From NCBI GenBank assembly GCA_951406725.2, contig OX597828.1, forward strand, positions 3,410,001 through 3,474,000: DNA of 64,000 nucleotides, in the 5' to 3' direction. The first letter of the stretch is position 1, and the number at the start of each line of letters is the position of its first letter. Below the pieces are notes generated by a model. It did not search any database. It had not been told where the DNA came from and was given only the letters and a program-made list of their open reading frames with translations. Position numbers and translations under genes: made by a program. Source of the DNA: Octopus vulgaris. Its lineage: Eukaryota. Of the stretch, positions 12,147-58,635 are shown piece after piece.

Positions 12147-12149
<3 letters not shown>

Positions 12150-12683
12150 TGTAGGAAGAAATGGAGCTGAACGAAGATTTAACAAAATTCCTTTTTATTA
12201 TTTTCTACATATGTTTCGAAGGCTGCAAAGTCCCTAATTCGGATTGAATTAGGACAATCTCTTCTGCTTTCACCCAGTCTGGCGTCAACGCATATAGATA
12301 GTCAGTTTGTGCTATTTATTTCATGGGCTCCTCGTGAGCGTTTGTCGAAAAGCTTGCTATGCATTTTGTTGGAGAATTAAGTTCCTGGATTTTCCTGAAG
12401 AGAAGGCTGCAAAATGGACTCCTTATTCAATCCGAATTAGGGACTTTGCAGCCTTCGAAACATATGTAGAAAATAATAAAAAGGAATTTTGTTAAATCTT
12501 CGTTCAGCTCCATTTCTTCCTACCACTTGATATAGAAAACTTCAAATGTCCATGGCACTAAGGCACGGTTTTTATGCCCCATGGTCGTAACTTGAACCGT
12601 GCTTTTTTCTGTTGTGATTTTTGCTACCCAGGTATCGGTTATCATTTGAATTATCCGTAATAAGATAATTCAGTTATCTACTT

Positions 12684-12690
<7 letters not shown>
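12147..12690 (+). mobile_element. Non-autonomous HHR element with 5' inverted arm, flanked by (TA)n
   Basis: 12147-12254 is the near-exact reverse complement of 12420-12528. It shares gaaatggag(c/t)tgaacgaagatt with 58131-58635. Confidence 0.8.
12389..12474 (+). ncRNA. Intact type I minimal hammerhead ribozyme
   Basis: Stem I attttc/gaaaat, core CTGAAGA (12395-12401), 12-bp perfect stem II gaaggctgcaaa/tttgcagccttc, GAAA, palindromic stem III acatatgt, GUA cleavage triplet, AATAAA immediately after. Confidence 0.85.
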
Positions 12691-12752
<62 letters not shown>

Positions 12753-12754
<2 letters not shown>

Positions 12755-13095
12755 CAATTGCAGCGTGGAAGGTGTTTGTAAGCCATTTAAGAAACACACA
12801 AAAGCCGTTCGATTCACTTCAACATTTAAATTTAATTTGTCAAAATATTTTCGTCGCTAAAATCCGCGACCTGTTCACTGACAAAAATCCGATGCAGCAC
12901 GGATTTTTGTCAGTGAACAGGTCGCGGAGTTTAGCGACGAAGATATTTTGACAAATTAAACTTAAATGTTGAAGTGAATCGAACGACTTTAGTGTGTTTC
13001 TTAAATGGCTTACAAACACCTTCCACGCTGCAATTGTTTTCGTTTCAGCACACGATCTCAGATCAAATCACTTGCCATGCAAGTACATCTCCGTA
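12753..13095. mobile_element. Palindromic non-autonomous element with G3:C8 variant HHR in each arm
   Basis: Arms 12753-12891 and 12900-13038 are near-identical inverted copies. A second family member lies at 34574-34753. Flanked by (TA)n. Confidence 0.8.
12836..12885 (-). ncRNA. Hammerhead variant with core GUGAACA (G3/C8)
   Basis: Minus strand: uuuguca-GUGAACA-g-gucgc..gcgac-GAAA-AUAU-UU-ugacaaa, giving a 7-bp stem I, 5-bp stem II and palindromic AAUAUU stem III. Confidence 0.7.
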
Positions 13096-28890: not shown

Positions 28891-29620
28891 CCACTATGAC
28901 TACGACGACGGCGGCGGCAGCAGTTGCGGTTGCGGCTTTTGTTCTCCGAACAAGTCATGTACGTAACGCCGATCACTCGTACCCTATTCCTCTTTTAGTC
29001 ATCCGAGTCAACTATGTTCTACCGTTCTCTGTGCATGTTCAAAGGTAGAAATAGAAAAGATGATAATGTTTTGCGTCGCAGGTCTAATAAAGATTAACTA
29101 GGGGTCATAAAACATTAAGGATTCACGCCATGTTCCCCTAACAGGTGAATAAGAAAACTGTAGTCACATGCAGCCCCCGAAACTCTCTCTCTCTCTGCTT
29201 ACGTTTTCTACTTTCGTCAACTTATAGGTGGAATTGAATATCATCTATGCTAAACTTACCTGCTGCGGCTGCTGTCTTTTCTCCTCGGACCCAAAAATTA
29301 TAAAGACAACTGGCTCATTCATTTTCCTCTATTGCAGTTTCAAAGTCTCCTTCCATTGTATTTAATATATTCTTACTTGAAAGATGATTAAACGCGTAAG
29401 CACTAAATATTTGAATTCCAATCCATTTTTAATCTACAACATATTACACTTCATGCGCTTCATTTCATTGAATTTATACATACATACATACATACATACA
29501 TACATACATACATACATACATACATACACACATACACACATACATATATATATATATATACACATACATATATATGTATATATATGTATATATATATGTA
29601 TATATATATATATGTATATA

Positions 29621-29680
<60 letters not shown>

Positions 29681-29685
<5 letters not shown>

Positions 29686-30367
29686 ATATTTGAAGCGCAA
29701 AACCACTAGGTGGTCGGCCGTATGCTAGAAGTAGATCACCTACGATCAAACTACAAAGAAAGGAATGTTCTCTAGAGGAAAATTCAGCGGACACCAGAAC
29801 GAAATGCAGGCAAGACAGATGAAAATTAAATAAAAAACCAGAATTACTCACAGACCGGCGATTTCGCCTATTAACGAATGAATCACTTATGTAATCCATT
29901 GTCCATAGGCTCGTCATTGTGGTCGTTCCATAGGTAATGCAATTTGTAAAGCTAACCACCAGTATTCCGTATAAAATCAGACATGTACTTAGCGTCACCG
30001 ATTACATTGGTGTTAATTTCAAATGTCTTAGTTCTGGCGCGCTAAAATTCCGGAAACAGAATCCGCAGTAAATAATTTACTGCAGTTAATGCTGCCTGTT
30101 AGAGAACATATTTATTTTATCATTTAAATAATGAGGGAGATAAATTCAGTGTCCGCTGAATTTTCCTCTAGAGAACATTCCTTTCTTTGTAGTTTGATCG
30201 TAGGTGATCTACTTCTAGCATACGGCCGACCACCTAGTGGTTTTGCGCTTCAAATATACACATGTATTAGAATTTTCTCTGATTTTTCAGATTTTTGTAT
30301 GCTAGGCTACAGGTTTTAAATTGATATTAAATAAATTAATATTCAATTTATCTCCCTCATTATTTAA

Positions 30368-30369
<2 letters not shown>
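29681..30369. mobile_element. Non-coding HHR element, inverted plus circularly permuted (~550-nt unit), in TA/TG microsatellite
   Basis: 29681-29793 is inverted at 30149-30260 and 30122-30146 is inverted at 30345-30369. HHR-like motif on the minus strand at 29849-29921. Same family as 52263-52720. Confidence 0.8.
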
Positions 30370-30429
<60 letters not shown>

Positions 30430-43819: not shown

Positions 43820-43822
43820 TAT

Positions 43823-44472
43823 TGTTTATCGCCACTTTTATTTGGCTGTCCCCTAAGAGACAACGATACTGCTATTTAACCCCAAGAAGACATCTCATCC
43901 AGCTGGTTTATTCAGTGCGTTTCTCGCACTCGATATTTATTGGAAGCGAGAGATAATTCATGCCACCCTAGCACTGAGACCGCCAGAACACATAGTTTCA
44001 ATCTGTATTGGGTCTCCTCAGTGGTGGGTACACGTTCGCCAGGTTTGGCAGCAGTTCAACCTTACTTGCACTGTACCGAAAATGCAGGAAAGTAGTCCGT
44101 TAGAAAATAAATCTCTGTTCGCGATTGAAGTAGCATACGAATTAGACAGTACTGTTTATGGCCACTTTAATGTGGTTGTCTTCTAAGGGACGTGGAAACT
44201 GCCATTTAATCCCCTAAAGACGTCTCCACCAGCTAAGATTGAAACGACGTGGTCTGGTGGCCTCAGTGCTAGGGTGGCGGGAGTTATCTCTTGCTTGCAA
44301 CAAATACCGAGTCCGAGAAGCACGCTGAATAAACCAGCTGGTAGAAACGCCTTCCTGGGGTTAAACAACAGAATCGTCGTCTCTTGGAGGACAGCCATAT
44401 TGAAATGGCCATATACAATACTCTTTGATTCGTATACTATTTCTATCTCGAACAGAGATTTTCTAACGTACT
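43823..44472. mobile_element. Old 330-nt unit with terminal redundancy plus inverted permuted copy; degenerate HHR
   Basis: Direct repeat 43823-43861 / 44153-44191. 44235-44400 is inverted to 43840-44003 and 44378-44472 is inverted to 44095-44192. cca-CTGAGGA..GAAAC..TC-tgg on the minus strand at 43983-44024. Confidence 0.65.
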
Positions 44473-52262: not shown

Positions 52263-52720
52263 ACAGAACTCAGACATTTGAAATTATCCCCAATGTAATC
52301 GGTAGAACTAAGCATGTGTCTAGTTTTATATGGACAACTAGTGTTTAGTTTTACAAATTATATTGAATTGGAACGATCGTACGGACGAGTCTACGGACGA
52401 AGGATTACGTAAGTAATTTATTCGGTAATAGACGAAACCGGTATACGATTAATTCTTGATTTTTATATAATTTTCATCTGTCTTGCCTGCCTATGTTCTG
52501 GTGTTCGCTGAAATTTCTCTGGAGAACATTCATTCTTTGTAGTTAGATCGTATGTGATCTTATTCTAGCGTATGGTTATCCACCTAGTGTTTTAGCCCTA
52601 AATATACACATGTATTGAATTTTTTTTCTGATTTTTCGGATTTTTTATATGCTAAGCTACTGGTTTTAAATTGATATTAATTAAATTAATATTCAATTTA
52701 TCTCCCTCATTATTTAAATA
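52263..52720 (+). mobile_element. HHR element of the 29681-30369 family, in (TA)n
   Basis: Colinear homology and the same 3' end atctccctcattatttaaat-(TA)n. HHR motif 52376-52449: atcgta-CGGACGA-gtcta/tagac-GAAACCGGTA-tacgat. Confidence 0.8.
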
Positions 52721-57917: not shown

Positions 57918-58130
57918 TAGATAAATAAATAAATATATATATATAAATAAATAAATAAATATATATATATATATATATATAATGTGAAATAGAAAGATGA
58001 ATAATCTTGTTGCAGATTAATCAAAAGTTTAACCGATACCTTGGTAGCAAAAATCACAGCAGAAGACAGCACGGTCGGAGGTACAACCATATGGTGTTGC
58101 AACCGTGCGTTGGTGCGGATAATTGAATTT

Positions 58131-58635
58131 TAATATTATTAGTGAATTGAAGAAATGGAGTTGAACGAAGATTGAACAGAAATCGTTTTATTTCATTCTA
58201 CACGTGTTTCGAAAGGCACAATTTACCAAATTCCGATTGAATAATGAGACCATATTGTGTCTTTTCTTCAGGAAGAAATAGAAATCCGTTGGAAAAAACA
58301 AAAACAGAACAGAGGCGGAGCAAAACAAATCGAACGAGGCTCCTAAGAGCCCATGGCCAAACTGTTTATCAATGTATGTTGAAAACATACATTGATAAAC
58401 AGTTTGCCCATGGGCTCTTAGGAGCCTCGTTCGATTTGTTTTGCTCCGCCTCTGTTCTGTTTTTGTTTTTTCCAACGGATTTCCTATTTCTTCCTGAAGA
58501 GAAAGACACAATATGGTCTCATTATTCAATCGGAATTTGGTAAATTGTGCCTTTCGAAACACGTGTAGAATGAAATAAAACGATTTCTGTTCAATCTTCG
58601 TTCAACTCCATTTCTTCAATTCACTAATAATATTA
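58131..58635. mobile_element. 505-bp near-perfect palindrome carrying an HHR in each arm
   Basis: Arms 58131-58380 and 58384-58635, 3-nt loop gaa, about 3 differences by eye. Confidence 0.9.
58486..58576 (+). ncRNA. Intact type I minimal hammerhead ribozyme
   Basis: Stem I atttcttc/gaa(t)gaaat, CTGAAGA, stem II gaaag.cacaat/attgtg.ctttc, GAAA, palindromic acacgtgt stem III, GUA site, then AATAAA. Confidence 0.85.

What the first reader, a model, noticed from the sequence alone, without database searches (positions are those of the whole stretch)
29681..30369. Second junction-spanning element, with covarying hammerhead stems relative to 52263-52720
The minus-strand piece begins with the 25 nt that end the + piece (aatttatctccctcattatttaaat) and continues into new sequence, defining a ~550-nt permuted unit. 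Its HHR motif (caca-AUGACGA-gccuau/auaggc-GAAA-ucgccg-GUC-ugug) and the homolog at 52376 (aucgua-CGGACGA-gucua/uagac-GAAA-ccg-GUA-uacgau) differ in stems I and II while keeping pairing. Each has one different core mutation, so the consensus is CUGACGA. Both copies end at the same base before (TA)n, suggesting a fixed priming site.
Basis: partly seen in the sequence, partly recalled or inferred. Interest (0 to 1): 0.7.

Follow-up and report, generated by a model that had tools for sequence, protein, structure and literature searches.

The report
Hammerhead retrozyme with paired insertion ends
This is one copy of a 550-base, protein-free jumping repeat of a known kind that carries a predicted self-cutting RNA, and its two-armed insertions end at two different fixed points of the unit, one per arm, which likely records how a borrowed Penelope-type enzyme copies the RNA into both ends of a DNA break.

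Summary
29681-30369 is a two-armed insertion into a TA microsatellite: a minus arm (29681-30146) and a plus arm (30149-30369). It belongs to a family of 540-552-nt head-to-tail units, with a few hundred hammerhead-bearing copies (estimate) and a roughly 19-unit array.

Across 75 copies the hammerhead core is CUGAYGA (67 of 75). Three stem pairs change compensatorily between subfamilies, and helix III is a palindrome of varying sequence. Both window copies are core mutants, predicted inactive.

Ends are fixed at two sites about 105-110 nt apart, not one. All 24 two-armed insertions with both ends at a fixed site (of 49 two-armed) pair one of each. A 73%-identical sister family ends at the homologous places. 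A young Penelope-like element in this genome has the same target and a 38-nt tail, but shares no DNA similarity with the unit.

Verdict: a new member of the known metazoan non-LTR retrozymes. Cleavage, a circular RNA and the partner enzyme are not shown. This scan already noted the two-end footprint on other DNA, in this and other genomes.

The parts
29681..30146 (-). Minus arm: last 25 nt of one unit plus about 441 nt of the next; its 3' end is at fixed site P1
30149..30369 (+). Plus arm: 5'-truncated last ~220 nt of the unit; its 3' end is at fixed site P2
30147..30148 (.). Two bases between the 5' ends of the arms that match neither arm's template; likely untemplated (inference)
   Evidence: sequence
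29849..29921 (-). Type I hammerhead, subfamily A; core C3 is A (29917) and helix III has C15.2 as U; predicted cut after GUC at 29853
29681..29794 (-). Left arm of the perfect 114-nt inverted repeat
30149..30262 (+). Right arm of the perfect 114-nt inverted repeat
30122..30146 (-). 25-nt copy of the unit end (same as 30345-30369), read through into the next unit
30257..30369 (+). Segment between sites P1 and P2 (approximate start); equivalent of the Penelope 'tail' but about 105-110 nt; P1 lies in a small hairpin with a CACA loop, and an AU-rich hairpin precedes P2 (predicted folds)
29475..29680 (.). Left target microsatellite, (TACA)n/(TA)n/(TG)n
30371..30429 (.). Right target microsatellite, (TA)n
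52264..52720 (+). Second copy, subfamily B, single 5'-truncated arm ending at P2 between TA repeats
52376..52449 (+). Type I hammerhead, subfamily B; core U4 is G (52383); predicted cut after GUA at 52443

Best explanation
This is an inserted copy of a non-coding 550-nt hammerhead repeat (a non-LTR retrozyme) that is likely pasted into TA/CA microsatellites by the reverse transcriptase and GIY-YIG endonuclease of a Penelope-like element. Shown: the unit is head-to-tail, has no long ORF, carries a conserved hammerhead, sits in microsatellites and ends at two fixed sites, with one arm at each site in two-armed insertions. Inferred: tandem loci are transcribed, and neighbouring hammerheads pair through their palindromic helix III to cut out monomers that may be ligated to circles. 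The Penelope enzyme cuts both strands of a TA run and extends one DNA end from P1 and the other from P2, inside an RNA that is continuous across the cut site (a circle or an uncut multimer). The two cDNAs are then joined 5' to 5'. After insertion the copies decay neutrally; both window copies are predicted to be dead ribozymes.
For: Tandem unit and ~19-unit array with an inverted 5' copy. Longest ATG frame 22-55 aa in 5 of 5 longer-than-unit stretches checked. Core CUGAYGA in 67 of 75, whole core intact in 61 of 75, helix III ACCGCCGGU (28), ACCGGU (15) or ACCUAGGU (2), most others single changes of these; the sister family has ACAAUUGU. Compensatory pairs: G-C/A-U 39/23, C-G/U-A 33/25, C-G/U-A 40/28. 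Over the whole unit, common variants at paired columns keep pairing in 25 of 29 cases, rare changes in 80 of 351. Ends in 50 loci chosen by an internal pattern: 24 at P1, 12 at P2, 14 elsewhere, while the two windows cover about 6% of the unit. Two-armed inserts with both ends fixed: 12 of 12 and 12 of 12 pair P1 with P2, p = 1.2e-7. 74 of 85 fixed-end arms read through the cut site, and only 1 of 102 and 1 of 75 5' ends lie at it. A young Penelope-like family (781-aa frame, RVT_1 + GIY-YIG, copies mostly 98-99% identical) ends in (TA)n at two sites 38 nt apart. In vitro, a Penelope-type protein cuts and extends both strands and starts at two internal RNA sites in an AC-rich stem loop (PMC11167929).
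Against: No DNA similarity between the unit and any of 56 GIY-YIG loci examined (best nhmmer E 2.4 and 0.79), so the partner is not identified. No RNA evidence of cleavage or circles. Tandem overlaps within an insertion differ more (202 of 3425 sites, 5.9%) than inverted arms (99 of 2358, 4.2%; naive p = 0.005), whereas a single circular template predicts equality. On the count of covarying pairs the alignment does not beat shuffles (9 against 7.3, 82 of 500), and two stem I changes could be CpG decay (inference). P1 lies in a 14-nt purine-pyrimidine run, so microhomology to TA/CA could contribute to the fixed end. PMC11167929 found no difference in start site between the strands in vitro, and found the ribozyme dispensable for insertion.
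Confidence: 0.8

Rival explanations
1. The unit is the pseudo-LTR of an autonomous Penelope-like element, and all copies are its 5'-truncated stumps.
For: Partial tandems, inverted 5' copies and an optional tail are typical of Penelope-like insertions (PMC8557442). 24 of 57 Xenopus retrozyme families matched known elements, nearly all of them Penelope-like (10.64898/2026.07.22.740005).
Against: Read-through past the unit end returns to the unit start, up to ~19 times. Penelope protein matches lie in the flanks of only 3 of 124 loci, and all three are separate insertions beyond TA runs or other DNA. Descent from a lost or unsampled pLTR is not excluded.
Confidence: 0.08
2. Same element and enzyme, but the template is only an uncut linear multimer transcript; the ribozyme and circles play no part in mobilisation.
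For: Tandem overlaps are more diverged than inverted arms. No 5' ends pile up at the cut site. The ribozyme is dispensable for insertion in vitro (PMC11167929). The window copy's arms are identical although it has about 3% private changes elsewhere, so a mutated core may have been copied (inconclusive).
Against: The core and the palindromic helix III are kept through subfamily and family splits, which implies selection on the ribozyme in the propagating lineage. 8 rare variants are shared by tandem units of one insertion, against at most 0.9 expected (undersampled subfamilies could also give this). This rival is a variant within the best explanation, not exclusive of it.
Confidence: 0.35
3. 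The fixed ends are only places where the RNA happens to pair with a TA/CA primer (microhomology), used by any LINE-type enzyme through ordinary twin priming.
For: Both sites end in AAAT, and P1 is followed by alternating purine-pyrimidine bases.
Against: This does not explain why no P1+P1 or P2+P2 pair occurs (0 of 24). The sister family ends at the homologous places with a different local sequence that lacks AAAT. The arms overlap by up to about 350 nt, more than classic LINE twin priming gives (recalled).
Confidence: 0.1
4. A host-selected regulatory ribozyme, or a plain satellite spread by recombination.
For: One long array with a recent 4-unit duplication.
Against: The private mutation rate in the core (13 of 780) equals that of the rest of the unit (462 of 26717). 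Both window copies are core mutants. Copies are dispersed, 5'-truncated and have fixed 3' ends.
Confidence: 0.03

Closest known systems
Metazoan non-LTR retrozymes (Cervera and de la Pena 2020, PMC7229834; Li, Clavereau and Pollet 2026, 10.64898/2026.07.22.740005)
   Same: Non-coding, low-GC (33-36%) tandem unit with a type I hammerhead; monomers, dimers and a long array; well-paired predicted fold; coexists with Penelope-like elements.
   Different: The unit is longer than the 170-400 nt of the invertebrate examples, though within the 51-972 bp of the 2026 survey. Helix II is a long hairpin. Most copies are 5'-truncated one- or two-armed inserts. The parts of these papers that I read do not describe two complementary end sites.
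EN+ Penelope-like elements and their hammerheads (PMC4209133; PMC8557442)
   Same: Palindromic helix III suited to dimer cleavage, partial tandem, inverted 5'-truncated copy, tail at one end only, (TA)n target.
   Different: No ORF; the tail equivalent is about 105-110 nt, against 30-40 nt; no sequence similarity to the pLTRs sampled here.
Anole Poseidon element PAc in vitro (Frangieh et al. 2024, PMC11167929)
   Same: Two internal start sites, an AC-rich stem loop at a start site, both DNA strands extended, AT-rich target.
   Different: PAc showed no strand difference in start site, whereas here the two arms take different sites in 24 of 24 cases. The sites are further apart here.

Membership tests
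Metazoan non-LTR retrozyme | Short head-to-tail repeat unit, dimers to multimers | tested here: met
   540-552-nt units, ~19-unit array
Metazoan non-LTR retrozyme | Type I hammerhead in each unit | tested here: met
   Core intact in 61 of 75; core, stems and palindrome intact in 23 of 75; motif present through the array units. The two window copies themselves fail the core.
Metazoan non-LTR retrozyme | No protein coding, no LTRs | tested here: met
   Longest ATG frame 22-55 aa in 5 stretches; no RT-EN joined to the unit in 124 loci
Metazoan non-LTR retrozyme | Highly self-paired monomer | tested here: met
   3 of 13 array monomers folded as circles: z -4.8, -3.1, -1.5 against only 12 shuffles each; common variants keep pairs in 25 of 29 cases (the structure was derived from the same alignment)
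Metazoan non-LTR retrozyme | Self-cleavage of the RNA | not testable with these tools
   Needs in vitro transcription
Metazoan non-LTR retrozyme | Expressed as circular RNA | tested here: inconclusive
   Only contigs of runs guessed to be RNA were available
Autonomous EN+ Penelope-like element | ORF with RT and GIY-YIG endonuclease | tested here: not met
Autonomous EN+ Penelope-like element | Partial tandem, inverted 5' copy, tail at one end | tested here: met
   so it inserts like one without being one
Derivative of a known pLTR | Sequence homology to the pLTR of an autonomous element | tested here: not met
   No match in 56 GIY-YIG loci; only 150 of 6136 candidates were scored, so unsampled families remain

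The most novel reading that the evidence does not exclude
A dimeric Penelope enzyme holds one circular 550-nt ribozyme RNA and primes the two ends of a cut TA repeat at two different structure-defined start sites about 105-110 nt apart, one per DNA end. The Penelope 'tail at one end only' is then the footprint of an obligately asymmetric double priming, which non-coding RNA circles exploit.
Probability: 0.35. Interest if true: 0.68.

Novelty: new member of a known kind. Interest (0 to 1): 0.42.

Why it matters
How animal retrozymes are copied into DNA has been inferred mainly from co-occurrence with Penelope-like elements, and how those elements form tandem, inverted and tailed insertions is described as unresolved (PMC8557442). 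A family whose two-armed insertions take one of each of two fixed ends gives a rule that an in vitro Penelope assay can test directly: which strand starts where, and on one RNA or two. The family itself is one more retrozyme, and the window copies are predicted to be decayed.

Tried and rejected
- Rfam scan: only microsatellite-driven miRNA matches below their cut-offs among the 150 of 243 listed.
- Sequencing runs: no RNA holder listed. Contigs of four runs guessed to be RNA cover most of the laid part of one unit (30, 26, 29 and 16 of 30 bins), and depth is higher 3' of the hammerhead. Contig depth cannot rank parts, and 5'-truncated DNA copies would give the same pattern, so this is not used.
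- Search for the parent pLTR: none in 36 + 20 GIY-YIG loci. A protein search with a further Penelope family was not run.
- Array as a test of rolling-circle copying: units differ by about 9.6% on average, nearly star-like, with one recent 4-unit duplication; uninformative.
- Shared motif with other hammerhead families of this genome: no sequence match in 9 stretches (best E 1.7). The alignment fold failed and was redone.
- The loose microsatellite test was replaced by a stricter one.
- The automatic end classes for the sister family mis-scored several P1 ends because BLAST ran on into TA-rich sequence; I use only the printed junctions.
- The 25-nt overlap as a special junction: rejected, because 5' ends are scattered.

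Full report
Setting. The window lies at G000:C15:3410001-3474000 in a 2.8-Gb animal genome. Its size, about 30 large contigs and microsatellite load resemble an octopus; that is my inference from recalled knowledge, not a tool result.

Observation. The minus arm 29681-30146 begins with an exact copy of 30345-30369. The arms share a perfect 114-nt inverted repeat, and the copy at 52264-52720 is 80-86% identical and ends at the same base. Both hammerheads read as stated.

The family. A search with the minus arm scored 39 of 2653 first-look candidates and returned copies 86-95% identical over most of the query. Many run from the end of one unit into the start of the next, which fixes the unit at 548 nt here and 540-552 nt elsewhere. 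One locus on C2 is an array of about 19 units with an inverted 5'-truncated copy. A 22-nt helix II pattern matches 142 places, against 0 for the reversed control, and it hits 44 of 82 earlier non-array copies. That suggests a few hundred hammerhead-bearing copies, a rough lower estimate. The longest ATG frames in five longer-than-unit stretches are 22-55 aa. A sister family with a 534-nt unit aligns at 375 identities against 142 mismatches.

The ribozyme. From 103 hammerhead hits I kept 75: one per insertion, three from the array, four truncated ones dropped. The core is CUGACGA in 44 and CUGAUGA in 23. The whole core is intact in 61 of 75, and core, stems and palindrome together in 23 of 75. 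Three pairs change on both sides in many copies, two in stem I and one in stem II, with G-U intermediates in stem I. Cells with double changes exceed all 500 shuffles, but the number of covarying pairs does not (82 of 500), and the copies are related. The evidence is therefore a handful of events, two of which could be CpG decay (inference). Stronger is helix III, a palindrome in three forms here (ACCGCCGGU, ACCGGU, ACCUAGGU) and a fourth in the sister family (ACAAUUGU). That is the design for cleavage as a dimer described in PMC4209133. Helix II is a long hairpin capped by GUAA or AUAA. Over the whole unit, common variants keep pairing in 25 of 29 paired columns and rare changes in 80 of 351, while rare changes hit the core as often as the rest (1.7% each). 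The structure came from the same alignment, which biases the first figure. I read this as selection on the RNA in the propagating lineage and neutral decay after insertion. Both window copies carry a core change and are predicted inactive: C3 changes abolish cleavage in PMC11167929, and the effect of U4G is recalled.

The ends. There are two fixed 3' ends: P1 at unit 438-451 and P2 at about 551 (numbering of a 551-nt unit). I saw both; the test of how they pair was prompted by earlier notes of this scan. In 73 loci from the first searches the main arm ended at P2 in 41, P1 in 30 and elsewhere in 2, but two of the three queries bias this. In 50 new loci chosen only by the internal pattern the counts were 24 P1, 12 P2 and 14 elsewhere, with the two windows covering about 6% of the unit. 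Of 26 and 23 two-armed insertions, 12 and 12 had both ends at a fixed site, and all 24 paired P1 with P2 (p = 1.2e-7). Another 23 had one fixed end, and 2 had none. Fixed ends were followed by a microsatellite in 80 of 84 cases against 4 of 15 for other ends; in the second set the figures were 32 of 32 (P1), 13 of 21 (P2) and 9 of 20 (other). The window insertion is a P1+P2 case. The sister family ends at the homologous positions with different local sequence (junctions printed, alignment). In the predicted fold P1 lies in a small hairpin with a CACA loop, and P2 follows an AU-rich hairpin.

The template. 74 of 85 fixed-end arms read through the predicted cut site, and 5' ends do not pile up there (1 of 102; 1 of 75). 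A cut linear monomer is therefore not the template; a circle or an uncut multimer is. The data do not settle which. Eight rare variants are shared by tandem units of one insertion, against at most 0.9 expected. But tandem overlaps are more diverged (5.9%) than inverted arms (4.2%), which a single circle does not predict (L063, L033, L065 and L028 left out as complex or duplicated). The window's own arms show no difference in 139 nt, although the copy has 9 near-private changes in 312 single-copy positions.

The enzyme. The genome holds several Penelope-like families with a C-terminal GIY-YIG domain. One is young: a 781-aa frame with RVT_1 (just under Pfam's cut-off) and GIY-YIG, a cysteine linker of the Neptune/Nematis type described in PMC8557442, and a variant hammerhead-like motif. 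It ends in (TA)n at two sites 38 nt apart, and the one two-armed copy seen (L129) has the tail on one arm only. It shares no DNA similarity with the unit, nor do 20 further loci. It is a candidate partner by footprint only.

Literature seen. 10.64898/2026.07.22.740005: parts 1-3 of 5 (all main text; its supplements were closed and could list related families, though no mollusc was sampled). PMC4209133: parts 1-2 of 4. PMC11167929: parts 1-2 of 4. PMC7229834: passages and sections 14 and 17. PMC8557442: passages. Four searches listed no paper on a cephalopod retrozyme or on complementary arm ends; subscription journals and Repbase were not searched.

Verdict. A real, well-supported retrozyme family with Penelope-type insertions: a new member of a known kind. 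Its one notable property, the P1+P2 rule with sites about 105-110 nt apart, is tested here on two independent samples and makes a published in vitro system directly testable.

Noticed in passing
window 12147-12690: A two-armed insertion of a different hammerhead family (core at about 12395, helix III ACAUAUGU) between TA runs; one arm carries a long extension that the other lacks.
   Followed up: partly
window 57981-58634: A two-armed insertion of a related hammerhead family (helix III ACACGUGU) with 134-nt perfect inverted arms; one arm ends about 150 nt later than the other.
   Followed up: partly
L063:2400-2960 and L221-L245: Abundant sister retrozyme family, 534-nt unit, with a U-U mismatch at the base of helix II, a CCGAUGA core variant in some copies, and the same two end positions.
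   Followed up: partly
L125-L130 (e.g. G000:C5:1039501-1047500): Young Penelope-like family with many intact 781-aa frames, a hammerhead-like motif with UUGAUAA core and ACAUGU palindrome, a 38-nt tail, tandem TGACGT/ATTGG motifs in the 3' repeat, and more than 1 kb of A/C-rich sequence upstream of the RT frame.
   Followed up: partly
L092:2971 to L093:4230 (C2 array): Units 10-13 are repeated as 14-17 (three of the four pairs 0-0.5% apart) in an array otherwise about 10% diverged; a recent duplication or an assembly artefact.
   Followed up: partly
L237, L103, L149, L142, L146: Further distinct hammerhead families with palindromic helix III (ACAAUUGU, ACGAUCGU, ACAUAUGU, ACUCGAGU) next to the loci fetched.
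   Followed up: no
L055, L056: Penelope-like copies inserted in or near the same TA run as a retrozyme copy, showing shared target use.
   Followed up: yes
window 12753-13038 and 43820-44420: Other long inverted repeats (139 nt at 96%, 185 nt at 82%), likely different mobile elements.
   Followed up: no
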